A stretch of DNA of 64,000 nucleotides from Naegleria gruberi (Eukaryota): NCBI GenBank assembly GCA_000004985.1, contig GG738874.1. One strand, 5' to 3'. Positions 1 through 54,303 of the stretch are shown in pieces. The position numbers were made by a program, and so were the translations under genes. The notes beneath the pieces were generated by a model, which saw only the letters and a list, made by a program, of their open reading frames with translations, searched no databases and was not told where the DNA came from. The first letter of the stretch is position 1, and every line of letters begins with the position of its first letter.

Positions 1-2
1 AG

Positions 3-2996: not shown

Positions 2997-3465
2997 ACAA
3001 TTAAGATTTGGTGTGTTTGAAAATTTAATTTTAACGGCTCTGGGAATATTTAAGAAAATTCACACAAGTGATTAATAATTAAGTTATGATAAGAATTAGT
3101 GAACGTTCATTACACATTCACTTGAATGGCTATCGTATCTTAAACCAGTAGCACAACCAACTGTTGAAAAGAAATCTGTTGCCAAGACTGACAAGAGTCA
3201 AGTCAAATCAGCANCTGAAAAGAAGAAGGCCGATGTAACACCAAAAGAAATTGCTAAACCAACAAAGAAGCCAGTTGATACCAAGCCAGCTAAACCTGTT
3301 GTCGATACCAAGAAATCTGATGCCAAGAAGTCAACTGATAAATCTGGTAAGCCAAAGACTGGTGCCAAGAAAACTACTGGTAAGAACACTGATGCCAAGA
3401 AGTCAACTAATAAGAAGACTGATGCAAAGACAGGAAAGTCTGCTACTGCCAAGAAGACTCCAGCT

Positions 3466-9690: not shown

Positions 9691-11277
9691 ATGTCAAGCG
9701 ATAACACTAATGGTGGAACAACCTCAAGTGGTCCAGTTCTCTCCCAATCGGCAACTGATGTCTCATCTCCAACCGAAATTAAAGCCAAAAAGAAGGTTGT
9801 CATTAATGCTGAACCAACCCACGGTCCAATGTCAGTAGCTTCCAACACTACAAAAACCTCTGCCTCTGCTAAAGGAGCTCTCAAAGTCAATACATGTTGT
9901 GGTGTTGTTGAACTGACACCTATGAAATTAGCCTGTTTGATTGGTATGGCTATTACTGTCGTTGCCTTTGTTGCTTTGGGTGTTATTTCAATTACAAGCT
10001 TTGTTTATTCGAGCAGTAAGAAAATTGACCTTTTAATTACCTATGCAGATATCAGATATTACAGATCACAAGCTATGGCTGCTGTCAAGATGGCTGCTTA
10101 TTCTAATGTATGTTTTATAATTATTTGATCAAACTGAACTGTTATTTCCACAAATTAACAATGTTGTCAACCTTTTAACAATGATGACAACTAACATTAA
10201 TTGATAACCAATAATTTAATGATGACAATTCAATAGGATTTTAATCAATACTATGATATCTACACTTCCAACAATAACAATTTAACAAACCTCATCACGT
10301 CGATCAGAACAATTTTCCAAAATGATGCCACAGCCAATGCCCTCTTCACCAAGACCACTCTGACAGCAAAGAGTAAATTGGAAGGTTTTAATACCTATAT
10401 CTTTGGTTTATTGAGACAAGGCAGTTATCAACAAGATGCTATTGACACAGTGAATAGTCAAGATTATAAGGACACTGATAATCTTTTCTATTCTGGTTTA
10501 ACTTCCCTATTGAACTATGTCGTTACTTCGGAACAATCCAAAGACAATAGTGTCATTGCTTCCAACCTAGTTCAATTGGTAATTATTGTGATTGCCTTGG
10601 TGATTGTTTTGCCAGTTTTAGTATTCGTCTTTACTTATGCCATCAATCGTGACTCACTCTATTTGGAAAAGATTAGACGTGCCAATTCCATCATGTTATT
10701 GGATACAATTGCTGATAGTAATTTACGTTCTCTCTTCAAAGCTCATTGTGAAAAGGAAAAGTCAACTGAAAACTTTTTACTCTTAGAAAAGATTCACAAC
10801 TATAAGGCCATGTGTGAAAGAGTCGACGATTTAAATATGAAATTATATGGAGATAGCACAATTTCTGATACTGCTAGTGCTTCTTCAAAGACTGATTCAA
10901 CTGCCACTGCTGAGTCAGTTCCAAAACTCAAGAAGGAACAAGTTGCCAAGTATGAAAAAGAGCTCAATGAAATGGAAGGTAAAAAGTATGAATTGGCCTT
11001 TGAAATTTACTCCTATCACTTGGATATCAACGGTGACATGGCTGCCAACGTAACCAAGAGCAAGTGTGACAAGGTTAAGGTTCAACTCGATAATTACAAT
11101 ACCAAACAAATCGAAAGTTTACCACTCGATTTATTCAAACAAATTGAAAAGGAAGTTTGTTTGACCATGATGGACACTCACAATAGATTCAAATCATCCA
11201 TTGCCTTCCAAAAGGAAATGAAAATTCACAAGCTTAACGTTGAAAAGATTAAGGCTAAGCATAAGAATAAGTTTTAA
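9691..11277 (+). CDS. Two-TM RGS-domain protein (regulator of G-protein signalling). Two exons: about 9691..10107 and 10237..11277, with a 129-nt phase-0 intron. Paralog of 45176..46798.
   Basis: The RGS core is LEKIRRANSIMLLDTIADSNLRSLFKAHCEKEKSTENFLLLEKIHNYKAMCE (S.ENL.F-type motif). Exon 1 has the TM helix KLACLIGMAITVVAFVALGVI, and a second TM helix lies just before the RGS domain. Donor AAT|GTATGT, acceptor CAATAG|GAT. The architecture is colinear with the unspliced paralog on the minus strand at 45176..46798. Confidence 0.75.
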
Positions 11278-11655: not shown

Positions 11656-14600
11656 TTATTGGGTATTGGCAAAGAGGTTGGAAACACTTCTATTGTTTGA
11701 GTAGAGGAGTGGATTGTTTTTCAAGTGTCTGTGATGTTTGTCATTGAGCAAATAGGTCTTGACAATTCCCTTTCCTTTCACATCAACTTCTCTCTCTTCA
11801 AAATCATATCCCAAATCGAAAACTCTTTCATAAGTTGATCTGGAGATTTGAATTCGTCCATTCTTTGAAGTGGATTCCATTCGAGAAGCAATATTGATGG
11901 TATCACCCCATAAATCGTAGGCAAACTTTTTCATTCCAATCACTCCAGCAACAACTGATCCTGTATTAATTCCAACTCGAATATTGATTTGTTGAGGTGG
12001 TGGAGAGGATGATTTCACCTTTAATTCATTATCTGTTTCCTTAACAACCTCCTCTTGTTCATTATTATCAACAGATTTGAGTCGATTTGAATTGAAATCA
12101 TTTATCACTCCAAATGTTTCAATTGCAAATTTTAAAACTCTTTCAGGATGATCACTTGTTGCAGCTCCAGGTAATCCACCCACTGCAAAATAGGCATCTC
12201 CAATTGTTTTGATCTTTTCCAAATCATATTTTTCAGTCAACATGTCAAATCCATTCACAATTGAGTTCAACATCATTACTAAATCAGTGGCTTGCATATT
12301 ACTACTTATGGCTGTAAATCCAACCATATCTGAAAAGAAACAAGTGATATCATCCAATTTTTCAGCAATGAATGTATGTCCACTTTTCAATCTTGAAGCA
12401 ACACTTGTTGGTAAGATATTCTTCAAGAGATTATCCGATTTTTGTTTCTCTTCACTCAATAAGGCATTTTGTTTCTTTTCAGAAGTTAAATCTTTCATTG
12501 TGACAATCAGAATATTTCTCATTGAACCTCTTTCACCTTGAATTTTGACAGTGAAGAGTGTTATTTTGCAAGGGAATTTGGTTTGATTTCTTCTGATACA
12601 ATCTAATTCAACAATTTCACATTTTCCATTTCCTTCTTCACTCTCCTTGCTGGATTGTTTCAATTGAACATCTTCATCATCTTGATCTTCATCCTTCTTA
12701 TCAGAATCTTTTCCACTCTTTTTGAAAATATACTTGATACACTTGTTGAGTTCATCTTGGTGTGTTGATTCAACCAATTGTGAAATTGAAGTTCCCAAAA
12801 CATCAATTGGTTTCATTCCAAACATTTTCAATGCAGAATAATTCAAAAATTCAATTTCATGATTCTCATTACAAATAATACTTCCTTCAACACTTGAATT
12901 GAAAACATTCTTCAAATCAGAAATGGATGAAGCGGAAGATGATGATGATTTGTCCTTCTTTTTCATTCTTGTACTCAATGAATTGGTATTGTTATAGAGG
13001 ATAAAGTTTCTCAATGTTTCATTCCTCTCTAAAACTTCAACTGGAATATATTGTGACATTAATCGAAGTGAATGTAATTGACCACAATAATTGGAGTAGA
13101 TGATATACATCAGAAAGAAGAAAACCATACACCCAACAATTTCCACACCTGCAAAGCTTATTACTACATCATAAGAGGGAGCTGTAGAGGAGGAAATGAA
13201 TGCCTTGATGAAAATTGTGAACTTGTTACTCAATGCTAGTGCCATTCTCATAGCAAGGTTATGCCGTATCCCTAAATCAGCTATTGGAAGAAGAATACCT
13301 TTTGGAGTTGCTGCCTTTTGAAGAGAATTTTGCTTTCTGGAGTCAGTCAATAATTGAGGAACCAGGGTCATGTAATCATTCAAAAGTGTTTCCAAACCGA
13401 TGCAGTACATCATATTTGTTTCTATTGTAAGAGTCATATTATTTTCTTGCAAATAGTCAGAGCAATTAGATGAAACGCCATGATTAATAAGTGAGTCAAC
13501 ACCTGGATACATTCCTAAAATTGGTCTGGTACCAACAGAGGCATCCCCATAAATTAATCTTGACCACATACTACTAAGAGTTGGTAATCTATTTGTTGCT
13601 CTGTCAAAGAGTACATTGAAATTTGTAACAGTATTGAATAATCTTGGATCACCATATGTAACATTTCTTTTGAAATTAACTGCCAATGGAGAAATATTGT
13701 TTGAAATTTCACTTGCAACAAAGTAGGTCATTACTTCACCTGTGTTAAATGCGATTCTCTGTACAGATGTTGCAGCTTGAATACTTAATCTTACATTGTT
13801 CATCACTCTACCAGCAGTTTGGGCATTGAAGTCGCTTTCATAATAGAACATGGCAATACTTGCACATGTAAATAAGGTAATCAGCGAAATCAAAATAATT
13901 GTTGAAATGTTTGATTTCATTTTGGCAAGTGAGAAAGTATTGTCAGCATTATTGGCAGTATCAGTTGTTTTGTTGTTGAGAGAGTGAAATATTTTTCCAA
14001 TCACATCTTTGCTCAAATGTTTTTCATATATTTTCACAATTTTTGTCATATGACTCATTTCAAATATCATATAACTCAAATAAGCAATACTGATCAAAAA
14101 GAATGCAACTAGAACTGCACCTGAATAATACACCAAATTTTGAGTTGTTAGATCTACTGCATCTGTTGATCTATCAAGATAACGGGCGCAAAAAGTATCA
14201 AAAGCCAGTGAAGCAGTTTCTCTATTCGCAAACAGGAACATGAAATTGTAATTCTTCAATGGGTGAAAGTACAAATCAGTTGCTGCAATATTTAGCAATA
14301 GAGTTTGATAGGACGGATCATAGTTATGGCTTGAAATATTTGTCAACAAGTTAATTGGAAAGGTGTCAATCATATTTTGGGTATACTTGATCATGTGGTT
14401 TGTAAATTCAAGAATGGATATATTCTTTTGACTTGCACTTCCTAAATCATACAAATTCAAATCTTTTGAATTTTCATTTGGAAAGTTACAAGTGTAAATG
14501 TTAGCAGAATAATCTGAATATACATCTACATCGAAAGAATTACTTTGACTCAATTTGATAAGATTCTTGTAAATATCAATATTGTCTTGCAATCGTTTGT

Positions 14601-17136
14601 AGGAATTCTTGATATATTCAGTTTTGGAAAGAGTCTCATATCCTTGATAGGTATTTGGCCATGGATATTCAAAAAACATGAAGGTATTAATGAAGTTCTG
14701 TGTTGCCCTAATGTTTCTAAGTACAGAGTAAGGAGAAATACTTGGTTGACAAACTTGTTGGAGGTAAGGAACTCCTGATTTTACCATATTTGAATAATAG
14801 GCACTGAGAGCCAGTGATGCAACAAACAGAGCAACAACAACCAGGGCGTAAATGCAAGTGATAGATAGTGTGAGAGTATTTGATCTTTGTGATGAAATGG
14901 CATTCTTGAAAATTTGCTCCTTTTTAATCTTTGGATTTTCAAATGCACTTGCCATATCATCTTCATTTGGTTCCTCTTGAGCCAAGTACATTTCATAAGT
15001 ATTTTTTACCTCTGACACAAGTGGCATAATTCTATTTCCTCTCTTATTGACTGTATTATTTGCAAATGAAGCTTTCCTTCTCTTTTTAATTTCCTCTTCT
15101 TCAATGGAGGACGCTTCATTGTAATAGTATTGTGCTAATTCTGAATTGAATTCAAAATTTTCCAAAAAGTTTCCATATAATCTGAGAAGTGTCTTGTTAT
15201 TCTTATTGTTGAAAATTAAATTTTGCAACGTATTTCTACATTGAGTGGTCAAAGCATAAATGGAACGATTAATCTTTTCAACAGATGAATAATTAATTCT
15301 TTCAGAGGCCATTTCTTTCCAAAAGTTTCTGTGAAGAACCAACAAGTTATTTTGATTCTTTTCTAGAATATCTAATTGAGAGGTTAATTCAAATGAATTG
15401 CTTGTTGATTTGGATTTTAAATTGAATGATTCAATTTGTTTCATTTTCTCTCTGATTTTAAATTGTTGGAAAATGTTTGGATGTTGTGATGAGGCTCTTT
15501 TCAATAAACTCATTGAAAAGACACAATTATTTGAATCTAACCATTGTGTTTGAATCAAGAGTGCAGAATAGATTAATAGATCAACATTATTGAATGATTT
15601 TTGATGAGCTGCACCTCTTATGAAAGACATGGCCAATTCACAATCTTTCAATATTTGATTATTTTCAGTAGTGCTATTATTGTTAGTATTATTGGATGAT
15701 TTGTTTAGTGTAGAATTGGATAAACATGATTTGATGAATAATTTCAATAATGATAACTTGTTGAAATCTTCAAACATGTAATATAAATTCATTGCATTCT
15801 TTTCAATTAAAATAAGTGATGAAATGGTTCCATAATTTTCATGACCTTCAATTCCATTCAATATCATATTTCTTGCTCTCTTCAATTGTAAACGTTGATA
15901 CAGTTCCATTGTCAATGTGCCAACAGTAAAGAAAATGATAATAAGAGCAAGTGTCATTAATGAAAATGCAATTCCCATCATTTCAAAATTGGCCCTCTCA
16001 GAATCTGAAGATGAAGATGTTATCGATGATGAATTGACCAATGAAGAAACGAGTGAACCAATACTCGCACCAACTCTTGCTGACATTACACCAAAATACA
16101 ATGAATTTTCAAATCTTCTCAAACATGGCATGCTATAGAATACCAAAACACAACAAATTAGTGAAACTAGTAAATGAAAAATTGCTGATATGAAAATATA
16201 ATTGGTTGGTAATAATTGAGACAATACCAATTGTAAAATACTCAGACAACCAATCAAACTAAAAATGAATGGATTTTCAATCAACATTGGAATTTGAGAT
16301 TCTGGATTTGAATTGCATGTTATAAATTCTGATAATGGAAAGACAAAAGTGACCAAAACTAAAATTGAAATAATTGAAAGAATTAACATGATCAAATTGG
16401 TGGTGTCATTAATACATGCTTGATTCGGATATCTCATCAATGAAGCAATCATATCAGAAGATTCATCAGCATCATTCATCATCATTGTTGAACTACAATT
16501 GAGAAAACCAAGCAACACATAAACAAACAACAAGGAGAATGGTTTTACAATCAAAGCACAATAAAAAGTAAACCATTTCAATTTCTTATAATACTTGTTC
16601 TGTTTGTTGGCTAATCGAATTGAAATTACATAAAAAACAGCCATAATCAATATAATTGCAATGAAAACAGAACCAATTCCAACAACACCCAAATAAGGAA
16701 TCATTCTTGCAATCAAAGTCGTTGGAAAATTGAAAGCATCAATTAAAATATAACTTCCAACATGTCCCCATTTAAAATCTGAAAGAGTTGTCATGAAAAT
16801 TAAACACCACATCCAATAAACATTCACAAATAAAAAGATTGAATAATTTTTCCATCCCTTCTTTGCCTCACAATCTTGTAAAGTGATAATACTATTGGTG
16901 AGTAATATCTTTGCCTGATAAGTGATTGAATTAGTTTCGGTTGTGGTTGTATGAGTGTTGGCACTGTGCAAACTTTCAGAGCCAACATGAGATGGTGTTG
17001 GTTGTAAGAGATTAGATGGATGTTGTTGCTGAGCATTGAAGGAGAAGGCAGCGCTGTAGGAATCGAATAAATTATTGGAAGAAATGTTTCGTGTTGTTTC
17101 GTTTGGATTGGAATGATTTGAGTTGGATTCCTCCAT
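11656..17136 (-). CDS. Receptor-type class III nucleotidyl cyclase, predicted adenylyl cyclase (1826 aa), tandem copy 1.
   Basis: The C-terminal cyclase homology domain contains FSDMVGFTAI, KIKTIGDAYFAVGG, GSVVAGVIGMKKFAYDLWGDTINIASRMES. The purine-specifying residues are Lys (KIKTIG) and Asp (YDLWG), as in adenylyl cyclases; guanylyl cyclases have Glu and Cys. Upstream lie an N-terminal ~6-TM block, a predicted helical region, and two more TM segments flanking a ~350-aa extracellular segment. A PAS-like segment precedes the catalytic domain. No intron is needed. Confidence 0.85.
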   Translation of the reverse strand: MEESNSNHSNPNETTRNISSNNLFDSYSAAFSFNAQQQHPSNLLQPTPSHVGSESLHSANTHTTTTETNSITYQAKILLTNSIITLQDCEAKKGWKNYSIFLFVNVYWMWCLIFMTTLSDFKWGHVGSYILIDAFNFPTTLIARMIPYLGVVGIGSVFIAIILIMAVFYVISIRLANKQNKYYKKLKWFTFYCALIVKPFSLLFVYVLLGFLNCSSTMMMNDADESSDMIASLMRYPNQACINDTTNLIMLILSIISILVLVTFVFPLSEFITCNSNPESQIPMLIENPFIFSLIGCLSILQLVLSQLLPTNYIFISAIFHLLVSLICCVLVFYSMPCLRRFENSLYFGVMSARVGASIGSLVSSLVNSSSITSSSSDSERANFEMMGIAFSLMTLALIIIFFTVGTLTMELYQRLQLKRARNMILNGIEGHENYGTISSLILIEKNAMNLYYMFEDFNKLSLLKLFIKSCLSNSTLNKSSNNTNNNSTTENNQILKDCELAMSFIRGAAHQKSFNNVDLLIYSALLIQTQWLDSNNCVFSMSLLKRASSQHPNIFQQFKIREKMKQIESFNLKSKSTSNSFELTSQLDILEKNQNNLLVLHRNFWKEMASERINYSSVEKINRSIYALTTQCRNTLQNLIFNNKNNKTLLRLYGNFLENFEFNSELAQYYYNEASSIEEEEIKKRRKASFANNTVNKRGNRIMPLVSEVKNTYEMYLAQEEPNEDDMASAFENPKIKKEQIFKNAISSQRSNTLTLSITCIYALVVVALFVASLALSAYYSNMVKSGVPYLQQVCQPSISPYSVLRNIRATQNFINTFMFFEYPWPNTYQGYETLSKTEYIKNSYKRLQDNIDIYKNLIKLSQSNSFDVDVYSDYSANIYTCNFPNENSKDLNLYDLGSASQKNISILEFTNHMIKYTQNMIDTFPINLLTNISSHNYDPSYQTLLLNIAATDLYFHPLKNYNFMFLFANRETASLAFDTFCARYLDRSTDAVDLTTQNLVYYSGAVLVAFFLISIAYLSYMIFEMSHMTKIVKIYEKHLSKDVIGKIFHSLNNKTTDTANNADNTFSLAKMKSNISTIILISLITLFTCASIAMFYYESDFNAQTAGRVMNNVRLSIQAATSVQRIAFNTGEVMTYFVASEISNNISPLAVNFKRNVTYGDPRLFNTVTNFNVLFDRATNRLPTLSSMWSRLIYGDASVGTRPILGMYPGVDSLINHGVSSNCSDYLQENNMTLTIETNMMYCIGLETLLNDYMTLVPQLLTDSRKQNSLQKAATPKGILLPIADLGIRHNLAMRMALALSNKFTIFIKAFISSSTAPSYDVVISFAGVEIVGCMVFFFLMYIIYSNYCGQLHSLRLMSQYIPVEVLERNETLRNFILYNNTNSLSTRMKKKDKSSSSSASSISDLKNVFNSSVEGSIICNENHEIEFLNYSALKMFGMKPIDVLGTSISQLVESTHQDELNKCIKYIFKKSGKDSDKKDEDQDDEDVQLKQSSKESEEGNGKCEIVELDCIRRNQTKFPCKITLFTVKIQGERGSMRNILIVTMKDLTSEKKQNALLSEEKQKSDNLLKNILPTSVASRLKSGHTFIAEKLDDITCFFSDMVGFTAISSNMQATDLVMMLNSIVNGFDMLTEKYDLEKIKTIGDAYFAVGGLPGAATSDHPERVLKFAIETFGVINDFNSNRLKSVDNNEQEEVVKETDNELKVKSSSPPPQQINIRVGINTGSVVAGVIGMKKFAYDLWGDTINIASRMESTSKNGRIQISRSTYERVFDLGYDFEEREVDVKGKGIVKTYLLNDKHHRHLKNNPLLYSNNRSVSNLFANTQ

Positions 17137-18513
17137 CTTTCTTTTGGTTTTTTTTTGAAAATTGTAGTTTTTGTGCCGCCCGGGCGGGTAAGTTGTCAGA
17201 AGTTTCAGATTCGAATAACTTCAACTATACTTCTGTACTGAACTTTAGATGTTGAACATAATTTCCTTCTTGAAATTTGTTTAGTTCGACCGATAGTGAA
17301 ATTACTTTGTTGAGATAAGTTCGCAATGTCTATCAGAATTACATCATGAGATTTCAAATAAAAAAATTATTCGAAATATGGTTATATCATTCACTAGAAT
17401 AAATGTTTGTAAACTATATAGTTTGATTTCTAGTGATTGGTCATTAATTTTGCAACCAGGTTCATGCTCCTTATGATAAGTTTACTTTCGAATATATACA
17501 ATTACAAATGAAAATGGAAATAAAAATTCTCAATTAATTTTGATGTTTGTAATTAATGACAGGTTTTGAGATAATGGTGGGCTAGGAACATAACGAAAAT
17601 GATTTTCTTGCCGTTTGCCCTCTTGATGTGTTTTGAAGCCAAGCGTCATCTTTTAAATTTACTTTAATGTCCAACATTTTAGAGGATAGAACGTTTATTC
17701 CCACTAGTAATATCACCATCAAGAGTTCTTCATCAGATATCTCGAAATCCTTTCTTTTGTTCTTCAAGTTCATGTTTGATTTTTTCTTGCCTTTTTGAGA
17801 GTTGTTTTTGGTTTTTTCAATTTTTTCATATTTATTTTCAAAGGCCACATCAAAGCATCGAAGGAGATTGGCTTCACACAAGATTTTAAGCAATTTGGAA
17901 ATACAGGTAAAGTGCTTTATTTTGAAACATCACAAAAAATCAAACAACAATCTTTTAATAATTAGCTGAAGATTGAGCCTTTTCAAATAATATCAAGTCT
18001 TTATTCAATAATTGCCAAATCCTTACAATTTTTATCTCACGATCTGGCAAACATTGAAATTGTTAATTAATCATGATCGATTGTTTAATAGATTGATCAA
18101 AAAACAGATTGATTAGATGGATTTTAATCGATCAACATGGATGAGATGGAAAAATGATTGGTGTTGAGTGAAAAAATTGTTTCTGGAAAACTGCAATATT
18201 CATCGAGTGGCAAATTTCACTTCATGGTGAATTTTCCAACATGGCAAAGTTCATGTTTAAGAGATTTTCTCCTAAGGTCCATATAAGGGTTGTGGCATTA
18301 TCTTCCTCACGAATAAAATCATCAAAGTTGAGCATATATTTTTTCAACTGTAAAAGGGGAATAATGTGTTCAATGTAACCTCATTGAGCACTGAAACAGA
18401 AAGTTTATTCTCTTAATGTACAAATTCAGCGTAAAACGATTTTCTTTGCTTGTATTAATATTATAATAAAATTATAGGAATATATAAATATTATTTTAAT
18501 CTTTCAACATGGT

Positions 18514-21500
18514 TTAGTTGGAGAAAAGTATTGGCATGCTTCTATTGTTTGAGTAGAGGAGTGGATTGTTTTTCAAGTGTCTGTGATGTTTGTCATTGAG
18601 CAAATAGGTCTTGACAATTCCTTTTCCTTTCACATCAACTTCTCTCTCTTCAAAATCATATCCCAAATCGAAAACTCTTTCATAAGTTGATCTGGAGATT
18701 TGAATTCGTCCATTCTTTGAAGTGGATTCCATTCGAGAAGCAATATTGATGGTATCACCCCATAAATCGTAGGCAAACTTTTTCATTCCAATCACTCCAG
18801 CAACAACTGATCCTGTATTAATTCCAACTCGAATATTGATTTGTTGAGGTGGTGGAGAGGATGATTTCACCTTTAATTCATTATCTGTTTCCTTAACAAC
18901 CTCCTCTTGTTCATTATTATCAACAGATTTGAGTCGATTTGAATTGAAATCATTTATCACTCCAAATGTTTCAATTGCAAATTTTAAAACTCTTTCAGGA
19001 TGATCACTTGTTGCAGCTCCAGGTAATCCACCCACTGCAAAATAGGCATCTCCAATTGTTTTGATCTTTTCCAAATCATATTTTTCAGTCAACATGTCAA
19101 ATCCATTCACAATTGAGTTCAACATCATGACTAAATCAGTGGCTTGCATATTACTACTTATGGCTGTAAATCCAACCATATCTGAAAAGAAACAAGTGAT
19201 ATCATCCAATTTTTCAGCAATGAATGTATGTCCACTTTTCAATCTTGAAGCAACACTTGTTGGTAAAATGTTCTTCAAGAGATTATCCGATTTTTGTTTC
19301 TCTTCACTCAATAAGGCATTTTGTTTCTTTTCAGAAGTTAAATCTTTCATTGTGACAATCAGAATATTTCTCATTGAACCTCTTTCACCTTGAATTTTGA
19401 CAGTGAAGAGTGTTATTTTGCAAGGGAATTTGGTTTGATTTCTTCTGATACAATCCAATTCAACAATTTCACATTTTCCATTTCCTTCTTCACTCTCCCT
19501 CTTCACTTGTTTCAATTGAACATCTTCATCATCTTGATCTTCATCCTTCTTATCAGAATCTTTTCCACTCTTTTTGAAAATATACTTGATACACTTGTTG
19601 AGTTCATCCTGTTGAGTGGATTCAACTAATTGTGAAATTGAAGTTCCCAAAACATCAATTGGTTTCATTCCAAACATTTTCAATGCAGAATAATTCAAAA
19701 ATTCAATTTCATGATTCTCATTACAAATGATACTTCCTTCAACACTTGAATTGAAAACATTCTTCAAATCAGAAATGGATGAAGTTGAAGATGATGATGA
19801 CTTGTCCTTCTTTTTCATTCTTGTACTCAATGAATTGGTATTATTATAGAGGATAAAGTTTCTCAATGTTTCATTCCTCTCTAAAACTTCAACTGGAATA
19901 TATTGTGACATTAATCGAAGTGAATGTAATTGACCACAATAGTTCATATAGATAGTGTAAAGCAGACTAAATATAACCAAACATGCCAAAAATTCTAAAC
20001 AAGCAAAAACAATGGTAACACCAAACGAAGGATTTGATGATGAGCTCACAAATACCTTCATAAATGTAACGAACTTGTTGGTAAGAGCTACACTCATTCT
20101 CAACGCTTGGTTATGTGATAGAGCAACATCTGTTGGTGCAAGAAGAATACCTTTTGGAGTTGCTGCCTTTTGAAGAGTGTTTTGCTTTCTAGATTCGGTC
20201 AATAATTGAGGAATCAATGTCAAATAATCATTTAAAAGTGTTTCCAAACCAACACAATACATCATATATGATTCCATTGTTAATGTAATATTATTCTTTT
20301 GAAGGTAGTCAGAGCAATTAGATGATACACCTTGAGTAACAAGAGAGTCAACATCAGAATATCTTCCCAATATCTGGTCATCTCCAGTGTTTGGATCACC
20401 ATAAATTAGTCTTGACCACATACTACTAAGAGTTGGAAGTCTTGTTGTCACTCTGTCAAAGAGTACATTGAAATTTGTAACAGTATTGAATAATCTTGGA
20501 TCACCATATGTAACATTTCTTTTGAAATTCACTGCCAATGGAGAAATTTTGTTAGAAATTTCACTTGCAACAAAGTAGGTCATTACTTCTCCACTGTTAA
20601 ATCCAATTCTTTGAATAATTGTGGCAGCTTGAATACTCAATCTTACATTCTTCATAACCTTAGAACTGCTGAAAGCGTTGGCATTACTTTCATAATAGAA
20701 CATGGCAATACTTGCACATGTAAATAAGGTAATCAGAGAAATCAAAATAATTGTTGAAATGTTTGATTTCATTTTGGCAAGTGAGAAAGTATTGTCAGCA
20801 TTATTGGCTGTATCAGTTGTTTTGTTGTTGAGAGAGTGAAATATTTTTCCAATCACATCTTTGCTCAAATGTTTTTCATATATTTTCACAATTTTTGTCA
20901 TATGACTCATTTCAAATATCATATAACTCAAATAAGCAATACTGATCAAAAAGAATGCAACTAGAACTGCACCTGTATAATACACCAAATTTTGAGTTGA
21001 CAATTCAATTGAATCAATAGATCTATCAAGATAACGGGCACAAAAAGTATCAAAAGCCAGTGAAGCAGTTTCTCTATTCGCAAACAGGAACATGAAATTG
21101 TAATTCTTCAATGGATTGAAGTACTTGTCGCTAGCAACTAAATCCAACAACGCTGATTGAGTAAATGCATCATTGTTGTTATTGGAAATATTTTGTAGTA
21201 AATCCCAAGGAAATTCATTGATTACATTCTGAGTATATTTGATCATATTGTTTGTAAATTCAAGAATTGAAACATTCTTTTGAGATGAACTTCCCAAATC
21301 GTATATCGTGACATCTTTCGAATTTTCATTTGGATAATTGATGGTAAAATTATTAATAGAATAATCTGAATATACAGTCTCATCAAATGAATTACTCTGA
21401 CCTAATTTGATCAAAGTCTTATAAACCTCTAGCTCTTCTTTAAGTCTTTTCAAAGAGTTGGCAAAGTAATTAGGTTTTGTAGAAATAATATTTCCCTGAT

Positions 21501-23761
21501 AACTAATAGGCCATGGATACTCAAATAACATGAAGGTATTTACAAAATTTTGAGTGGCTCTAACATTTCTTAGAGCAGAATAAGGAGAAATACTTGGTTG
21601 ACAAACTTGTTGAAGGAAAGGCACTCCTGAAATTACTGCATCAGAGTAGTATGAACTCAGTGCTATGGAAGAAACAACAAGGCACAAGCAAACAAATATG
21701 TAGAGTAAACTAATTATAACTGTTGTAGAATTTGACCTTTGTGATGAAATTGCATTCTTGAAAATTTGCTCTTTCCTCATCTTGGGATTTTCAAATGCAC
21801 TTTCCATATCATCTTCATTTGGTTGTTCTTCTACTGGGAATAAGTATGGTTCAAAGTTGGCCTTGGTTTCGTGGAGAGGCATTACACGGTTAGTTCCTCT
21901 CTTATTACTAGTAGCATTACTAAACACAGAAGCTCTTCTCTTCTTTTTCATTTCCTCTTCTTCAATGGAGGAAGCTTCATTGTAATAGTATTGTGCTAAT
22001 TCTGAATTGAATTCAAAATTTTCCAAAAAATTTCCATATAATCTGAGAAGTGTCTTGTTATTCTTATTGTTGAAAATTAAATTTTGCAACGTATTTCTGC
22101 ATTGAGTGGTCAAAGCATAAATGGAACGATTAATCTTTTCAACAGATGAATAATTAATTCTCTCAGAGGCCATTTCTTTCCAAAAGTTTCTGTGAAGAAC
22201 CAACAAGTTATTTTGATTCTTTTCTAGAATATCTAATTGAGAGGTTAATTCAAATGAATTGCTTGTTGATTTGGATTTTAAATTGAATGATTCAATTTGT
22301 TTCATTTTCTCTCTGATTTTAAATTGTTGGAAAATGTTTGGATGTTGTGATGAGGCTCTTTTCAATAAACTCATTGAAAAGACACAATTATTTGAATCCA
22401 ACCATTGTGTTTGAATCAAGAGTGCTGAATAGATTAATATATCAACATTATTGAATGATTTTTGATGAGCTGCTCCTCTTATGAAGGACATGGCCAATTC
22501 ACAATCTTTCAATATTTGATTATTTTCAGTAGTGCTATTATTGTTAGTTGGATGATTTGTTTAGTGTAGAATTGGATAGACATGATTTGATGAATAATTT
22601 CAATAATGATAACTTGTTGAAATCTTCAAACATGTAATATAAATTCATTGCATTCTTTTCAATCAAAGTAAGTGGAGAAATGGTTCCATAATTTTCATGA
22701 CCTTCAATTCCATTCAATATCATATTTCTTGCTCTCTTCAATTGTAAACGTTGATAAAATTCCATTGTCAATGTGCCAATAGTAAAGAAAATGAAAATAA
22801 GAGCAAGTGTCATTAATGAAAATGCAATACCCATCATTTCAAAATTGGCCCTCTCAGAATCTGAAGATGAAGATGTTATGGATGATGAATTGACCAATGA
22901 AGAAACGAGTGAACCAATACTCGCACCAACTCTTGCTGACATTACACCAAAATACAATGAATTTTCAAATCTTCTCAAACATGGCATGCTATAGAACACC
23001 AAAACACAACAAATCAGTGAAACTAGTAAATGAAAAATTGCTGAAATGAAAATATAATTGGTTGGTAATAATTGAGACAATACCAATTGTAAAATACTCA
23101 AAGAACCAATCAAACTGAAAATGAATGGATTTTCAATCAACATTGGAATTTGAGATTCTGGATTTGAATTGCAAGTTATGAATTCTGATAATGGAAAGAC
23201 AAAAGTGACCAAAACTAAAATTGAAATAATTGAGAGAATTAACATGATCAAATTGGTGGTATCATCAATACATGCTTGATTAGGATATCTCATCAATGAA
23301 GCAATCATATCAGTAGATTCATCAGCATCATTCATCATCATTGTTGAACTACAATTGAGAAAACCAAGCAACACATAAACAAACAACAATGAGAATGGTT
23401 TTACAATCAAAGCACAATAAAAAGTGAAGTATTTCAATTTCTTATAATACTTGTTCTGTTTGTTGGCTAATCGAATTGAAATTACATAAAAAACAGCCAT
23501 TATTAATATAATTGCAATAAAAACAGAACCAATTCCAACAACACCCAAATAAGGAATCATTCTTGCAATCAAAGTCGTTGGAAAATTAAACGCATCAATT
23601 AAAATATAACTTCCAACTTTTCCCCAATTAAAATCTGAAAGAGTTGTCATGAAAATTAAACACCACATCCAATAAACATTCACAAATAAAAAGATTGAAT
23701 AATTTTTCCATCCCTTCTTTGCCTCACAATCTTGTAAAGTGATAATACTATTGGTGAGCAA
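18514..23761 (-). CDS. Receptor-type adenylyl cyclase, tandem copy 2. It is disrupted. A 5-nt deletion relative to copy 1 breaks the frame between 22512 and 22544. The 5' end is separated from the body by N-gaps and an inserted duplicate block.
   Basis: The first ~885 nt (18514-19398) and the whole catalytic and N-terminal TM parts are nearly identical to copy 1. The extracellular middle part is clearly diverged. Alignment of 22500-22560 with 15640-15720 shows 'attgttagttggatgatt' in copy 2 versus 'attgttagtattattggatgatt' in copy 1. Confidence 0.7.
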
Positions 23762-23824
23762 TATCTTTGCCTGANNNNNNNNNNNNNNNNNNNNNNNNNN
23801 NNNNNNNNNNNNNNNNNNNNNNNN

Positions 23825-24895
23825 GTGGCAAATGTTGAGAGTGTACCATTAATATCAATCTTTTTGATAGACCAAGTTGGATTGTTTTCAACAAAGTAAA
23901 TATCACCAGTCATTAACGAAACTGTGACTGTGTTTGGATTGGTCAACTTGACAGTATTAGCTGGAAGGCCATCAGTGTTTTCATTAGATGATGAACCTGA
24001 TGCTGCAACACCAGCAATGGTTGATACAACAGTAGGAATGTTATCGAAAACTTCTTGTTCAGGATCAACAATAACACCAGTCCAATTATAAGTTAATTTT
24101 CTGATTAAATTATTTGCTCTGTCAATAATGATCAAATCTTGAGGTCTTTCATCTTCTACCAAATTTACAAGAGGTGTAGGAATTGTTCTAGGATAGAATG
24201 CAATAGCGTGTGGATGACCGATTGGTGTATCAAGTCCATTATAGCCATCACCAAGATTACCTCCAGCGATGGTTTCCAATTTGTATGTAGGAGCCAAGTT
24301 GTTATCTGAAGATGTTGCATTGATGGTAGTAGTACTAAACAACAACATCATCAAGAGAAGGCTACTAATAAATAAAGATAATAAATATTCGTGATGAGAA
24401 AAAGATTTTACTCTCCCTGCAGAGTCGAAAAACCTCTTCATTTTTGTGCCTTTTTTTCTTCTTGTCGATTCACTCTACTTGTGCATAAGAGAAGAATGTT
24501 TGATGGATGGGAAGTAATTTTGGAAGGGCAAGGGCAGAAAGTATGTTGTTTGATGCTAAGAAGTGATCTCCGCATTTTGATTTTGTTGGAGTAAATTTAA
24601 TTGGCTGATTATTTTTTGTTAGTATTCTTTTTGTCTTCCATTTACGAGGAAGATCTTCATGAAAGATTATTTATCTGATATTAAAGATAGCATTGTGATG
24701 AACAGATGAAAGCAACACATTTTTATTTTTTTTAAATTATGAATTGTTTATTCTTGTAACGGTAACTTTTACTGCCCGCCACGTTTAAAAAATGAAAAGA
24801 AAGCAAGAAACAAAAAACACCAAGAAATTATCTTCATCATCCAATGAAGGACCAACAAAAAAGTTGAAGCAATCCAACCTTCTCTCCCTATTCAA
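23825..24895. repeat. Diverged (~98-99% identical) duplicate of 30467..31525. That source region holds the 5' end of the NHL/EGF gene, the bidirectional promoter, and the first ~100 nt of the AP-endonuclease gene. The duplicate is flanked by N-runs and sits inside the 5' region of adenylyl cyclase copy 2.
   Basis: Direct sequence comparison shows scattered substitutions. A 3-nt indel gives SGSSSNENTDG here versus SGSSNENTDG in the source. Further small indels occur near 24640. Confidence 0.8.
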
Positions 24896-24945
24896 NNNNN
24901 NNNNNNNNNNNNNNNNNNNNNNNNNNNNNNNNNNNNNNNNNNNNN

Positions 24946-25145
24946 GCCTGATAAGTGATTGAATTAGTNTCGGTTGTGGTTGTATGAGTGTTGGCACTGT
25001 GCAAACTTTCAGAACCAACATGAGATGGTGTTGGTTGAAGCATTGAGGAAGAGAAAGCTACGTTGGTATTTTGTTCGAGCAGGTTATTGGAAGAGGAGGA
25101 TGAACCATTACTTGCATTAGGTACTGCAAGTAAGTCTTCGTTCAT
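24946..25145 (-). CDS. Displaced 5' coding segment (N-terminal ~65 aa) of adenylyl cyclase copy 2.
   Basis: Its translation ...MLQPTPSHVGSESLHSANTHTTTT.TNSITYQ matches the copy-1 N-terminus. The nucleotides match 16900-17040. The segment is bounded by an N-run at 24896-24945. Confidence 0.5.
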
Positions 25146-25529: not shown

Positions 25530-28500
25530 TTAAGGTTCTTCAGTGAGTGTTGCGTAATTTCCATTTCCATCATTTTGATTTTGTGGAGCGGTTTGTCCTT
25601 GTTTCTTCTTGTAAATGTAATATCCAACACCAATGACAATTGCAATAATTATCATCAAAATAAATCCTACAAGAACAACGATATATGATTTGTCACCCTT
25701 TTCTGTAATAATTGTTCCAGCACTACTTGATGTTGGCTTATTGCTTGATGTGCTTGGTTTGTTTGGGGATGGAGTTGGTTTGTTTGGAGATGGAGTTGGT
25801 TGAGGAGTCTTACCACTGCTAGATGTTGGTGGAGTTATTGGTTGAGCAATAAGGGCAAAAGATGAAGGCCAATGAGTAGTTGAGCATACAACTGAATAAG
25901 TGCTTGCTGTTGCTCCTTGTTGTGAACTCAAAATGGTGGTTGTAACTCTGTCAGTCTTCCAAGAATCAGTGGCTTTATCGTAATATGCACAAGCAATTCT
26001 GGACAAGGCGACACTATGTCTTGCTAATGCAGATGTTGGAACGACTATATTGTGCATGTTTAAAAGGATTGGATCAGGAAGGTTATTTAATTCTACTCTT
26101 TGGTTGTTTCCTTGTTGAGTAATGATGAATGTAACAGCAGGGCTCAATACTTTAGAGTTAACACTTCTAATATCAGAAACTGATGAGGCCATATTGAGTG
26201 GAATCTCTTCATCTCTGAGAATAGTTTCCAAATAATCAGAAATTGATGCAGGAAGAGTAATGAAAATATCCTTGAATTTGGTAAATGTAATATTAAAGCT
26301 CTCCATATCTTCCATATCTTGTACGTCTATAATGTTTGTTTCTGTCAAATTCTTCAAAGCAGTATTGTTTACAACAGAACAGAAGAGGGAAGTATCTCCT
26401 GGTGGACAAATAATATTTGTAGCACATTGAGGACCATTATATCCATAAGCACATTGACATGAATCAGGAGATTCACAAACACCATTTCCAGAACATACAT
26501 TAGGATCAGAATAATGAATACCATAACAATAGTAATTCTCACAATTATTACCAGAGAATCCACTTGTGCAATTACACTTGTTTGGAGATGAACAAATACC
26601 ATTACCTGAACAAACTTGAGGATCATTCTTATCCAAGCCATTACAAGAGAAGCTTTCACAATTTTCTCCTTCATATCCAAGAACACAAGTACAATTATTT
26701 CCAGATGAGCAAACACCATGACCTGAGCACACATTGGTATCGTTTGAAGGAATACCATGGCATTTGAATGCTTCACAAGTGTGTCCATAGTATGGTTCAG
26801 TACATTCACAGAGGTCAGGTTTTGAACAAACACCCTTTGATGAACATACTTGTGTATCATTGTGCATAATTCCAAAGCAGTCAAAATGTTCACAAACATT
26901 TCCGTAATATCCAGCTTGACATTCACACTTGTCTACAGATTTGCAAATACCATTACCAGAGCATACTTGCTTGTTAGAATTGAGTACACCAAAGCATTGA
27001 TAATTTTGACATTCCTTTCCTGAATAGCCAGCTTGACAAGTGCAATTGTTTCCAGATGAGCAAACACCATGCCCTGAGCAAACAGTTGAAGTATTAGTTG
27101 AGGAAATACCATAACATGTGAATGATTCACAATTAACTCCTTCATAAGCCTCCTTACATTCACAACGACCTGGGGCTGTGCAGTATCCATTTGCTGAACA
27201 CACATTTGGATCGGCGTGTTCTACTCCATTACAGTAATAAAATTCACAACTAGAACCGTTAAAGTTTTGTTCACATACACACTTATCAATTGCTTCACAA
27301 ACACCATGTGAGGAACATACTTTCTCATCGTTGTGGGCCAATCCAAAGCATCCATAATTCTCGCATTCGTTTCCATAGTATCCAGGTTTGCAGGTACAAT
27401 TATTTCCAGATGAACAAACACCATGACCTGAGCAAACAGTGGAGTCATTTGATTGTTTTCCGAAACAGGTAAAATATTGGCAAGTTTCACCAGAGTGACC
27501 ATCGCGGCATTCGCACTTGTTTGGCAAACTACAGAGACCAGCTTGAGAACAAACTGATGGATTTGAGTGCTCTACACCAAAACAGTCATAATGCTCGCAA
27601 TTATTTCCATAATATCCATTGTTACAAGTACAATTATTGGCAGAAATACAAACACCTTGAGATGAACAAACGTTTGGATCTTCCTTTGGAATTCCATTGC
27701 AACCAAATAATTCACATTGCTCGCCATAATAACCTGCGAAACATGAACAATTATTGTAAGACTCACAAACACCATTGCCCGAACAGACAGTTTCATTTGA
27801 AGGGAGCAAACCAAAGCAAATTCTCGGTAATTTTTCACATTCAGCAGCATCATTAAGTCTGTAACCCTTTGGACACATTGCTGTCAACTTTCTAACTCTA
27901 GAATTACCACTGTCAGCAATATAAACAGTACTTCCGTCTGGTGAGATATCAGCAAACAATGGTCTGTTCAAAAGTGCGAGCCTTGAATCTAAAACAACTT
28001 CTCCATTGAATCCATTAATACCAGTTTTACCAGCAATAGTAGAGATGGTAGCGTTTTCTTCCTTAAGATTAAATCTTATAATTGTGCTATCTCCATTACA
28101 AACAACAATAAAATCACCCTTTGGAGAAACTGAAACAGATCTTGGATAGTAAATAGTATCATCAGATTCAGAACCTTCCAAAACGGTGGAAATAATTCCG
28201 TCATTTGAAACTTTTCTAATTCTATGACTGGCAAAGTCAGAAATGAATACTTCTCCTTCTGGGGATAAGGCAACTGAAGTAGGATTAGCCAATGAAGCAA
28301 GTGTAGCCTTAATATTATCAGCATTATAACCATAATTGTAGTTACCAGCAATAGTTGAAATAACACCCTCTGCGGATACTTTTCTAATTCTGTTAGCAAC
28401 ATTATCAGCAATGTAAATTTCACTTGATGCAGAAACAACAAATGAAGATACACTTGACAAAGCAGCTTGTGTAGCCAATAATCCATCACCAATACCACCA

Positions 28501-31076: not shown

Positions 31077-31425
31077 TTTTGTGCCTTTTTTTCTTCTTGT
31101 CGATTCACTCTACTTGTGCATAAGAGAAGAATGTTTGATGGATGGGAAGTAATTTTGGAAGGGCAAGGGCAGAAAGTATGTTGTTTGATGCTAAGAAGTG
31201 ATCTCCGCATTTTGATTTTGTTGGAGTAAATTTAATTGGCTGATTATTTTTTGTTAGTATTCTTTTTGTCTTCCATTTACGAGAAGATCTTCACGAAAGA
31301 TTATTTATCTGATATTAAAGATAGCATTGTGATGAACAGATGAAAGCAACACATTTTTATTTTTTTTAAATTATGAATTGTTTATTCTTGTAACGGTAAC
31401 TTTTACTGCCCGCCACGTTTAAAAA
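31077..31425. promoter_or_regulatory. Divergent (bidirectional) promoter region between the NHL/EGF gene (minus) and the AP-endonuclease gene (plus).
   Basis: Head-to-head real ATGs lie 349 nt apart. The GC-rich motif CTGCCCGCCACG sits 15 nt upstream of the APE ATG in an otherwise AT-rich spacer. Confidence 0.4.
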
Positions 31426-54179: not shown

Positions 54180-54300
54180 TGAATATCATGATGTTATAAT
54201 CTATATTTCCAATTTGGAAAATGTTGCAATGTCAATGTTTAATTGAAATATTGCCATCATACCAATAATTGATTTTATAATATAAAAATGGTATTATACA
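54180..54300. repeat. Subtelomeric dispersed repeat, family A. The second copy is at 56226..56340.
   Basis: Shared string ...caatttgg(a/g)aaatgt(t/c)gcaatgtcaat(g/a)(t/c)ttaattgaaatattgccat(c/a)ataccaat(a/t)attgatt... Confidence 0.7.
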
Positions 54301-54303
54301 CTA

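What the first reader, a model, noticed from the sequence alone, without database searches (positions are those of the whole stretch)
11656..23761. Tandem receptor cyclases: near-identical ends, diverged extracellular middle, adenylyl specificity predicted
Copy 1 and copy 2 are almost base-identical over the 3' ~900 nt (catalytic domain) and over the N-terminal multi-TM block. The ~350-aa predicted extracellular segment between the central TM helices shows many substitutions and indels (for example DFNAQTAGRVMNN versus NANAFSSSKVMKN, and GDASVGTRPILGMYPGVDSLINHG versus GDPNTGDDQILGRYSDVDSLVTQG). This pattern fits gene conversion homogenising the ends while the ligand-facing part diversifies. 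Both copies carry Lys in KIKTIGDAY and Asp in YDLWGDT at the two base-recognition positions, so they are predicted adenylyl, not guanylyl, cyclases.
Basis: partly seen in the sequence, partly recalled or inferred. Interest (0 to 1): 0.65.

Follow-up and report, generated by a model that had tools for sequence, protein, structure and literature searches.

The report
Tandem Naegleria cyclase genes, partly homogenised
Two neighbouring genes of the amoeba Naegleria gruberi encode large membrane adenylyl cyclases, and gene conversion has kept their ends nearly identical while the two outward-facing sensor loops keep an old divergence; this is a clean but ordinary case of concerted evolution.

Summary
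The mosaic is real. The window is Naegleria gruberi NEG-M. Copy 1 (11656-17136, minus strand) is an intact 1826-aa gene. Copy 2 runs from 18514 to 25144, not to 23761. A mis-scaffolded 1071-bp piece flanked by two 50-N gaps splits it, and it carries a 5-nt frameshift near 22548. Its public gene model (XP_002676156.1) is chimeric.

Four blocks are 95-100% identical (dS about 0.08; 0.024 over the cyclase end). Three blocks are 61-82% identical (dS about 1.3, near saturation). Four-fold sites differ at 5.7% versus 42% (Fisher p = 1.6e-18). The flanking DNA and the first ~43 codons are essentially unalignable. This fits an old tandem duplication followed by recurrent interlocus gene conversion.

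dN/dS in the diverged blocks is about 0.2, so there is no sign of diversifying selection. Against other paralogues the sensor loops are no more divergent than the membrane blocks.

The "extracellular middle" is two ~225-aa helical-bundle loops, not one ~350-aa segment.

All six canonical class III catalytic residues are present, with Lys1643 and Asp1741 at the specificity positions, so adenylyl cyclase activity is predicted.

This is a new example of a known process in an annotated but uncharacterised gene family. Interest is modest.

The parts
11656..17136 (-). Copy 1: intact 1826-aa ORF for a multi-pass membrane PAS / class III cyclase protein.
   Evidence: ORF list. Pfam gives TPR_TmcB at 583-682, PAS_9 at 1417-1551 and Guanylate_cyc at 1591-1798 with E = 3.8e-52.
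18514..25144 (-). Copy 2: the paralogous gene as it really extends, with its own ATG at 25144. It is interrupted by a scaffold insert (23775-24945) and by a 5-nt frameshift.
   Evidence: The public model P0012 (XP_002676156.1) matches its C-terminal 1304 residues.
23775..24945 (.). Scaffolding artefact inside copy 2: a 50-N gap, a 1071-bp piece (23825-24895) that is 99.4% identical to 30463-31529 (the 5' end of the NHL/EGF gene), and a second 50-N gap. The flanking contig ends overlap by 6 nt relative to copy 1, so no cyclase sequence is missing.
22545..22550 (-). Site of the 5-nt deletion (ATAAT relative to copy 1) in an Asn-rich linker. The frame shifts and reads ...KSSN-TAA.
15091..17007 (-). 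Homogenised block A (copy 1 codons 44-682): N-terminal tail, 7TM block, cytosolic linker and TPR_TmcB. The partner in copy 2 is 21952-23774 plus 24946-25038.
   Evidence: dS 0.090, dN 0.009. The 5' boundary is sharp at 17007/25038.
14257..15090 (-). Diverged block B (codons 683-960): end of the cytosolic linker, TM8 and most of extracellular loop 1. The partner in copy 2 is about 21109-21951.
   Evidence: dS 1.69, dN 0.265, dN/dS 0.16. Nucleotide identity is 64-81%.
13840..14256 (-). Homogenised island C (codons 961-1099): end of loop 1, TM9, cytosolic loop and TM10. The partner in copy 2 is 20692-21108.
   Evidence: dS 0.099. TM9-loop-TM10 is 91/91 residues identical.
13717..13839 (-). Diverged block D (codons 1100-1140): start of extracellular loop 2.
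   Evidence: dS 1.02, dN/dS 0.21.
13591..13716 (-). Homogenised island E (codons 1141-1182), inside loop 2.
   Evidence: dS 0.137. Mismatch profile.
13087..13590 (-). Diverged block F (codons 1183-1350): rest of extracellular loop 2 and TM11. The partner in copy 2 is 19939-20442.
   Evidence: dS 0.97, dN 0.239, dN/dS 0.25.
11692..13086 (-). Homogenised block G (codons 1351-1815): juxtamembrane segment, PAS, coiled-coil transducer and cyclase domain. The partner in copy 2 is 18544-19938. The last 275 codons are the most recently homogenised.
   Evidence: dS 0.051 overall and 0.024 for codons 1541-1815, against 0.090 for block A (p = 0.005). The 3' boundary lies about 10 codons before the stop.
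15922..16839 (-). Predicted block of seven TM helices in copy 1 (residues 100-405).
   Evidence: Kyte-Doolittle peaks. No Pfam match. The AF2 model has low confidence and gives no informative fold match.
14119..14805 (-). Predicted extracellular loop 1 (residues 778-1006), mostly helical.
13168..13845 (-). Predicted extracellular loop 2 (residues 1098-1323), mostly helical.
12484..12888 (-). PAS domain of copy 1 (residues 1417-1551).
   Evidence: Pfam PAS_9, E = 2.8e-14.
11743..12366 (-). Class III cyclase catalytic domain of copy 1 (residues 1591-1798), with D1603, D1647, K1643, D1741, N1748 and R1752. It is identical in protein sequence in copy 2.

Best explanation
The locus holds two tandem, head-to-tail paralogues of a Naegleria/Willaertia-restricted family of very large membrane cyclases.

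Predicted layout of each protein:
- an N-terminal tail outside the cell;
- seven TM helices;
- a cytosolic region with TmcB-type TPR repeats;
- TM8, helical loop 1, TM9, a short cytosolic loop, TM10, helical loop 2 and TM11;
- a cytosolic PAS domain, a coiled-coil transducer and one class III catalytic domain.

The catalytic domain carries all six canonical residues in a single chain, so the enzyme should work as a dimer. With Lys and Asp at the base-recognition positions it should make cAMP. The loops are the presumed sensors.

The duplication is old: synonymous sites in the unconverted parts are near saturation and the flanks no longer align. Since then, repeated non-allelic gene conversion has overwritten about 73% of the aligned codons. 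It has affected four blocks: the N-terminal 2 kb, the TM9-TM10 island, a small island in loop 2, and the 3' 1.4 kb. The cyclase end was converted most recently. Three blocks escaped: TM8 with loop 1, the start of loop 2, and the rest of loop 2 with TM11.

Shown here: the mosaic, the contrast in synonymous divergence, purifying selection in all blocks, the domain content and the catalytic residues.

Inferred: the topology, cAMP as the product, dimerisation, the sensing role of the loops, and the idea that the diverged blocks persist because selection on distinct sensing and/or a divergence barrier to recombination keeps conversion out.

Copy 2 as assembled is frameshifted. It shows no excess of amino-acid change, so the lesion is very recent, specific to one allele, or a sequence error.
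For: - Organism: the public model of copy 2 is XP_002676156.1, N. gruberi NEG-M.
- Mosaic identity.
- Synonymous divergence: 0.078 versus 1.29. Four-fold sites differ at 5.7% versus 42%, Fisher p = 1.6e-18. Biopython NG86, LWL85 and YN00 give the same picture.
- Boundaries are sharp and lie within the coding sequence, and the flanks do not align.
- Constraint does not explain the identity. The 7TM block is 97% identical between the copies and 45% identical to paralogue P0001. TM9-loop-TM10 is 100% versus 44%.
- dN/dS is 0.10-0.27 in every block.
- Derived amino-acid changes are symmetric between the copies: 6:6 in homogenised blocks and 38:47 in diverged blocks.
- Domains and hydropathy topology.
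- Catalytic residues align to AC9 C1 and C2 and to mycobacterial Cya.
- The sensor module is found in 116 cluster representatives. All 15 named members examined come from Naegleria or Willaertia.
Against: - No orthologous pair from a second species was available, so the classical test (paralogues closer than orthologues within the converted tracts) could not be run. The nearest N. lovaniensis and N. fowleri homologues are single-copy within the 10 kb of flanking DNA fetched on each side and show no shared neighbours.
- Four separately converted blocks with similar dS (0.09-0.14) need either recurrent conversion at equilibrium or one patchy event. The alternative of a younger duplication followed by import of the middle blocks is not formally excluded.
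- No GC3 rise was seen in the converted tracts, so there is no signature of GC-biased conversion.
- With dS near saturation, dN/dS in the diverged blocks is imprecise and episodic positive selection at a few sites would go unseen.
- The resemblance to four-helix-bundle sensors is generic. De novo designed bundles and talin score almost as well, and no Pfam sensor family matches even at E <= 10.
- The source is a draft Sanger scaffold. The near-identity of the last ~800 nt could be slightly inflated if reads from the two copies were mixed.
- Product specificity rests on a sequence rule only.
Confidence: 0.8

Rival explanations
1. The tandem duplication is recent, and the middle diverged quickly because positive, diversifying selection acted on the ligand-facing loops. 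This is the 'diversifies' half of the first reader's account.
For: The diverged blocks overlap the two predicted extracellular loops.
Against: - Synonymous divergence in those blocks is about 1.3, against 0.08 elsewhere in the same gene. Selection on protein sequence does not raise dS.
- dN/dS there is 0.16-0.28, and no 50-codon window inside the diverged blocks exceeds 0.25.
- TM8, TM11 and a cytosolic linker are equally diverged.
- The flanks and the first ~43 codons do not align, which a recent duplication would not produce.
Confidence: 0.03
2. The two genes were fully alike at a time corresponding to dS of about 0.09, through a young duplication or one full-length conversion. Later, three middle patches of one copy were overwritten by ectopic conversion from a third, more distant paralogue.
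For: Blocks A, C, E and the first half of G have similar dS (0.09-0.14), as a single homogenising event would give. The family has many paralogues in N. gruberi.
Against: - In every segment the two copies are each other's closest relatives. The nearest other N. gruberi protein found, P0001, is only 42-51% identical in the loops, against 66-74% between the copies.
- At 54-57% protein identity P0001 is too diverged to recombine by homology.
- A young duplication does not explain the unrelated flanks.
- Derived changes in the diverged blocks are symmetric at 38:47.
Confidence: 0.1
3. The mosaic is an assembly artefact. Either reads from two diverged genes (or alleles) were mixed, giving falsely identical ends, or haplotypes were laid out in tandem.
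For: The scaffold is a draft with gaps and single N calls. One proven mis-scaffolding lies inside copy 2 itself.
Against: - Copy 1, the 1377-bp spacer and copy 2 up to 23774 lie in one gap-free stretch between the single N at 3214 and the gap at 23775.
- The 'identical' 5' block still carries about 3% differences spread evenly, mostly synonymous, which read mixing would not produce.
- The flanks of the two copies are unrelated, so they are not haplotypes of one locus.
- Local allelic divergence, judged from the stray piece, is about 0.6%, far below the roughly 10% between the copies.
Confidence: 0.05

Closest known systems
TLR1 / TLR6 of mammals: tandem receptor paralogues partly homogenised by gene conversion (Kruithof et al. 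2007, PMC2077338)
   Same: Both cases involve tandem paralogous receptors. Gene conversion keeps the transmembrane and intracellular signalling end nearly identical between paralogues, while the ligand-binding part stays diverged. That paper reads this as conversion limiting the divergence of shared functional regions.
   Different: - The TLR case was shown with orthologues from nine species, whereas here only one genome is available.
- Here conversion affects both ends and two internal islands, so the tract pattern is a mosaic rather than one C-terminal block.
- The protein family is unrelated.
Trypanosomatid receptor adenylate cyclases (ESAG4/GRESAG4-type RACs; PMC7719234)
   Same: Both are large protist-specific expansions of membrane class III adenylyl cyclases with a conserved catalytic domain, variable extracellular parts and unknown ligands. 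PMC7719234 cites a study (Rogozin et al. 2020) suggesting gene conversion shaped the Leishmania donovani repertoire.
   Different: By established knowledge, RACs have one TM helix and one N-terminal extracellular domain. The Naegleria proteins have about 11 predicted TM helices, two helical loops, a TmcB-type TPR region and a PAS domain. No homology outside the catalytic domain was detected.
Homodimeric class IIIa adenylyl cyclases with solved structures (mycobacterial Cya 5o5k/7yz9, Rv1625c 1yk9) and mammalian AC9 (7pd4)
   Same: The catalytic domain and the preceding helical transducer segment align at E = 1e-45 to 1e-64. The metal Asp pair, Lys/Asp, Asn and Arg are all conserved. All six residues sit in one chain, as in the homodimeric enzymes.
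   Different: Mammalian enzymes have two catalytic domains (C1 and C2) and 2 x 6 TM helices. Cya and Rv1625c have one 6TM block. Neither has the loops, the PAS domain or the TPR region.
Bacterial periplasmic four-helix-bundle sensor domains (PilJ, NIT/NasR, 4HB_MCP as in Tar and PcaY, NarQ, TorS)
   Different: - There is no sequence-level match.
- Generic designed bundles and talin score nearly as well.
- Here two unrelated loops occur in series, in a eukaryote.

Membership tests
Class III nucleotidyl cyclase (Pfam PF00211) | Significant match to the catalytic-domain profile. | tested here: met
   E = 3.8e-52 (177 bits, cut-off 21.9) for copy 1 and 1.2e-52 for copy 2. PDB hits to AC9, AC8, AC5 and Cya.
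Class III nucleotidyl cyclase (Pfam PF00211) | Two metal-binding Asp plus the transition-state Asn and Arg. | tested here: met
   D1603 (FSDMVGFT) and D1647 (TIGDAY) align with the AC9 C1 Asp residues. N1748 and R1752 (TINIASRM) align with AC9 C2 TVNIASRM.
Adenylyl rather than guanylyl cyclase | Lys and Asp at the two base-recognition positions. By established knowledge from AC2 C2 (K938/D1018), guanylyl cyclases carry Glu and Cys (or similar) there. | tested here: met
   EKIK(1643)TIGD aligns with AC9 C2 EKIKTIGA and Cya EKIKVSGD. YD(1741)LWGD aligns with AC9 C2 YDIWGD. Other family members keep the motifs: P0001 and P0003/4 keep both, while P0005 keeps the Lys motif but its model stops before the Asp. 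A guanylyl cyclase alignment was not displayed by the tool, so the Glu/Cys contrast rests on prior knowledge.
Adenylyl rather than guanylyl cyclase | Measured conversion of ATP to cAMP. | not testable with these tools
   Requires an enzyme assay.
Class IIIa cyclase with an N-terminal helical transducer element | A conserved helical segment directly before the catalytic domain. | tested here: met
   Residues ~1555-1590 (NALLSEEKQKSDNLLKNILPTSVASRLK) align with the pre-catalytic helix of Cya 5o5k and of AC9. There is a weak HNOBA C-terminal match at 1554-1583.
Mammalian-type tmAC (2 x 6TM, C1 + C2) | Two catalytic domains in one chain forming a pseudo-heterodimer. | tested here: not met
   There is one Guanylate_cyc stretch per protein, and that single domain aligns to both C1 and C2 of AC9.
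Trypanosomatid receptor adenylate cyclase | A single-pass protein with one large N-terminal extracellular domain. | tested here: not met
   About 11 hydropathy peaks and two internal loops. The definition of the RAC architecture rests on prior knowledge and PMC7719234.
Interlocus (non-allelic) gene conversion between paralogues | Segments with synonymous divergence significantly lower than the rest of the same gene pair, with discrete boundaries. | tested here: met
   dS 0.078 versus 1.29. Four-fold sites differ at 24/420 versus 44/105, p = 1.6e-18. Boundaries.
Interlocus (non-allelic) gene conversion between paralogues | Within the tracts, paralogues are closer to each other than to their orthologues in related species. 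| not testable with these tools
   No orthologous tandem pair was retrievable. The N. lovaniensis and N. fowleri loci are single-copy and not syntenic.
Interlocus (non-allelic) gene conversion between paralogues | GC-biased signature (raised GC3) in converted tracts. This is common but not obligatory. | tested here: not met
   GC3 is 0.27 in homogenised blocks and 0.28-0.31 in diverged blocks.
Four-helix-bundle sensor domains (4HB_MCP / PilJ / NIT) | Profile match to the family, or specific fold similarity above that to generic bundles. | tested here: inconclusive
TmcB-like proteins (Pfam PF25474, TPR_TmcB) | Match to the TPR_TmcB profile above the gathering score. | tested here: met
   48.2 and 48.6 bits against a cut-off of 27.

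The most novel reading that the evidence does not exclude
Conversion is kept out of the two sensor loops by selection, so the pair works as a modular system. One shared signalling chassis (7TM block, TPR, TM9-TM10, PAS, transducer, catalytic domain) is kept interchangeable by conversion. This would allow the two products to form heterodimers as well as homodimers, with two different chemoreceptor-like four-helix-bundle ectodomains reading different ligands. On this reading the Naegleria family would be a eukaryotic counterpart of bacterial chemoreceptor-type sensing wired directly to cAMP synthesis.
Probability: 0.2. Interest if true: 0.55.

Novelty: new member of a known kind. Interest (0 to 1): 0.3.

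Why it matters
- It gives a clean, quantifiable case of concerted evolution in a free-living excavate. Conversion tracts follow domain architecture in a receptor-type enzyme, much as in TLR1/TLR6.
- It corrects a public gene model. XP_002676156.1 fuses an NHL fragment from a misplaced contig to a truncated cyclase.
- It defines the architecture of a heterolobosean-restricted cyclase family whose sensor loops, 7TM block and ligands are all uncharacterised. Naegleria carries about 80-100 cyclases and their inputs are unknown (PMC9928731).
- It does not reveal a new mechanism.

Tried and rejected
- An exact-sequence look-up of copy 1 and of P0001 in the contig index found nothing.
- A word-indexed homologue search with the loop profile returned one fragment only. 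The exhaustive HMMER search was needed.
- Loop 1 and loop 2 are not detectable repeats of each other.
- No Pfam family matches the loops or the 7TM block at E <= 10.
- GC3 shows no signature of biased conversion.
- N-glycosylation sequon density does not support or contradict the topology, because the protein is Asn-rich throughout.
- A second recent paralogue pair, N. lovaniensis P0034/P0131, is uniformly 99.4% identical, so it offers no replicate of the mosaic.
- No GT-AG intron can rescue the copy 2 frameshift.
- I first read P0001 as an orthologue from another species. One search showed that the window itself is N. gruberi, so P0001 is a paralogue. The per-domain comparison is therefore between paralogues.
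- Literature searches found no report of this locus or of gene conversion in Naegleria cyclases.

Full report
**Source and gene structure**

The window is a low-GC (~33%) eukaryotic draft scaffold with several N gaps. An exhaustive profile search with the sensor region returned P0012. One search identifies it as XP_002676156.1 / EFC43412.1, [quoted passage not shown], on a 401,612-bp scaffold. Its C-terminal 1304 residues are those of copy 2. The window is therefore N. gruberi NEG-M.

Copy 1 (11656-17136, minus strand) is an uninterrupted 1826-codon ORF.

Copy 2 is longer and less tidy than the finding states:
- Next comes a 1071-bp piece (23825-24895) that is 99.4% identical to 30463-31529, the 5' end of the neighbouring NHL/EGF gene. 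A second 50-N gap follows (24896-24945).
- The cyclase then resumes at 24946, with 24946-25040 being 96.9% identical to 16913-17008 of copy 1. It reaches its own ATG at 25144.
- Relative to copy 1 the two contig ends overlap by 6 nt. Nothing is missing, so the small piece, probably an allelic haplotig, was scaffolded into the wrong place.
- Copy 2 also lacks 5 nt (ATAAT) near 22548 in an Asn-rich linker, which leads to ...KSSN-TAA. No intron can repair this.
- The public model avoids both problems by splicing 167 residues of the misplaced NHL fragment onto "ALLIQTQWLD...". This discards the whole 7TM block, so the model is chimeric.

**The observation**

A MAFFT alignment of the two genes with their flanks gives 95-100% identity over copy 1 coordinates 17005-15059 and 13114-11700. 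Identity is 61-82% over 15058-14165. It is patchy over 13864-13115, with islands of 94-99%.

The only indels are the 5-nt frameshift and two in-frame indels (3 nt and 6 nt) in the cytosolic linker before TM8.

Homology starts abruptly at 17007/25038, which is codon 44 of copy 1. It ends about 10 codons before the stop codons. The first ~43 codons, the promoters and the 3' flanks align no better than chance, apart from faint traces.

**Gene conversion or selection**

I split the codon alignment into homogenised blocks (codons 44-682, 961-1099, 1141-1182, 1351-1815) and diverged blocks (683-960, 1100-1140, 1183-1350).

| Blocks | dS | dN | dN/dS | Four-fold sites differing |
|---|---|---|---|---|
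| Homogenised | 0.078 | 0.010 | 0.13 | 24/420 |
| Diverged | 1.29 | 0.25 | 0.20 | 44/105 |

These are Nei-Gojobori estimates. The four-fold contrast gives Fisher p = 1.6e-18. Biopython's NG86, LWL85 and YN00 give the same picture.

A 16-fold difference in synonymous divergence within one gene pair cannot come from selection on the protein. It is the signature of conversion, or of some other chimeric history.

Constraint does not explain the identity either:

| Segment | Copy 1 vs copy 2 | Copy 1 vs paralogue P0001 |
|---|---|---|
| 7TM block | 97% | 45% |
| TM9-loop-TM10 | 100% | 44% |
| Loop 1 (residues 778-960) | 66% | 42% |
| Loop 2 | 74% | 51% |

The loops are therefore not a fast-evolving part of this family.

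No 50-codon window inside the diverged blocks has dN/dS above 0.25. The middle is old divergence under purifying selection.

The cyclase end (codons 1541-1815) has dS 0.024 against 0.090 for the 5' block (p = 0.005). This implies more than one conversion event. The youngest is about as recent as the local allelic divergence of ~0.6% estimated from the stray piece.

Using paralogues as outgroups, derived amino-acid changes are symmetric between the copies: 6:6 in homogenised blocks and 38:47 in diverged blocks. Copy 2 has therefore not been decaying. Its frameshift is very recent, specific to one allele, or an error.

GC3 is not raised in the converted tracts.

**Rivals**

- A recent duplication with positive selection fails on dS.
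- A younger homogenisation followed by import of the middle from a third paralogue is not excluded. However, no candidate donor exists among the known N. gruberi proteins. The nearest, P0001, is 42-51% identical in the loops, against 66-74% between the two copies. That model also does not explain the unrelated flanks.
- An assembly artefact is unlikely. Both copies up to 23774 lie in one gap-free stretch. The "identical" 5' block still carries evenly spread, mostly synonymous differences. The flanks also differ.

**What the proteins are**

Pfam finds TPR_TmcB (583-682), PAS_9 (1417-1551) and Guanylate_cyc (1591-1798). Hydropathy gives seven TM helices at 100-405, then TM8 (759-777), TM9 (1007-1025), TM10 (1079-1097) and TM11 (1324-1342).

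With the PAS and cyclase domains cytosolic, residues 778-1006 and 1098-1323 face outward (or into a lumen), and the TPR region is cytosolic. Two Cys in loop 1 are invariant across the aligned members, and two more in loop 2 are invariant or nearly so. This fits an oxidising compartment.

The sensor module occurs in 116 cluster representatives, mostly proteins of 1400-1800 aa with the same layout. All 15 named members examined are from Naegleria or Willaertia.

**Specificity**

phmmer against PDB sequences aligns the single catalytic domain to both C1 and C2 of AC9 and to homodimeric mycobacterial Cya. The aligned residues are:
- D1603 and D1647, the metal ligands;
- K1643 (EKIKTIGD) and D1741 (YDLWGD), the base-recognition positions;
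- N1748 and R1752, the transition-state residues.

All six sit in one chain, as expected for a homodimeric class IIIa enzyme. By the established Lys/Asp versus Glu/Cys rule the product should be cAMP. The helical segment before the domain aligns with the transducer helix of Cya and AC9. Activity was not measured.

**Comparison and verdict**

The closest analogue in process is TLR1/TLR6. There, conversion homogenises the signalling end of tandem receptor paralogues while the ligand-binding end stays diverged (PMC2077338). Trypanosomatid receptor cyclases are the closest analogue in biology, and conversion has been suggested for the Leishmania repertoire (PMC7719234). Their architecture is different.

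The pattern is real and well explained, but the mechanism is ordinary. What is new:
- a documented conversion mosaic in a Naegleria cyclase pair;
- a corrected gene model;
- a description of the architecture of this uncharacterised family.

Noticed in passing
window 62700-63076 and 63658-64000: Two arrays of (GGGTTT)n, with 63.5 and 57.7 copies at 97-98% match. The G-rich strand runs 5'->3' toward the right end of the window, which is the orientation expected of a telomere. The second array runs to the window end. A 2013 survey states that no information was available on N. gruberi telomeres (PMC3622300), so TTTGGG may be the telomeric repeat of this species.
   Followed up: partly
window 23825-24895 (compare 30463-31529): A 1071-bp contig, 99.4% identical to the 5' end and upstream region of the NHL/EGF gene, sits between two 50-N gaps inside cyclase copy 2. 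It is probably an allelic haplotig that was mis-scaffolded. It makes the public model XP_002676156.1 chimeric: NHL residues 1-167 are fused to a truncated cyclase.
   Followed up: yes
window 5199-6362 (-), 35869-37266 (-), 10378-11277 (+), 45176-46798 (-): Two G-protein alpha-subunit genes and two RGS-domain genes lie within 35 kb of the cyclase pair. The two RGS genes share an 80% identical 190-nt stretch (10607-10796 versus 45831-45642). This may be a chance cluster of signalling genes, or another partly homogenised paralogue pair.
   Followed up: partly
window 25530-31076 (-) and 50951-53152 (+): An 1848-aa teneurin-like protein with NHL repeats, many EGF repeats and a C-terminal TM helix lies next to copy 2. 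A second gene combines NHL and BTB domains, and its NHL repeats form a 168-bp x 5.9 tandem array at 50972-51955 with 86% match.
   Followed up: no
window 54000-62000: The sequence upstream of the telomere-like arrays has large N gaps (54304-54952 and 57458-61945). A 91% direct repeat lies on either side of the larger gap (56870-57457 versus 62075-62661). This looks subtelomeric. The GC values of ~0.19-0.21 reported for 54-58 kb include N positions, so how AT-rich this sequence really is was not established.
   Followed up: no
window 1-4000: The + strand is strongly A-rich (AT skew 0.34-0.46). This stretch overlaps an 822-aa ORF (528-2996) and a 575-aa ORF (3466-5193), neither of which has a Pfam match.
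   Followed up: no
L001 10001-15706 (N. lovaniensis PYSW02000005.1): The closest N. lovaniensis homologue is annotated as two genes: a 1502-aa PAS protein without a cyclase domain, and an adjacent 213-aa Guanylate_cyc protein 157 nt downstream. This is probably one gene split by annotation.
   Followed up: no
proteins P0034 and P0131 (N. lovaniensis C9374_013611 and C9374_009222): Two family members on different contigs are 99.4% identical along their whole shared length. They could be a very recent duplication or a haplotig pair. They show no mosaic.
   Followed up: partly
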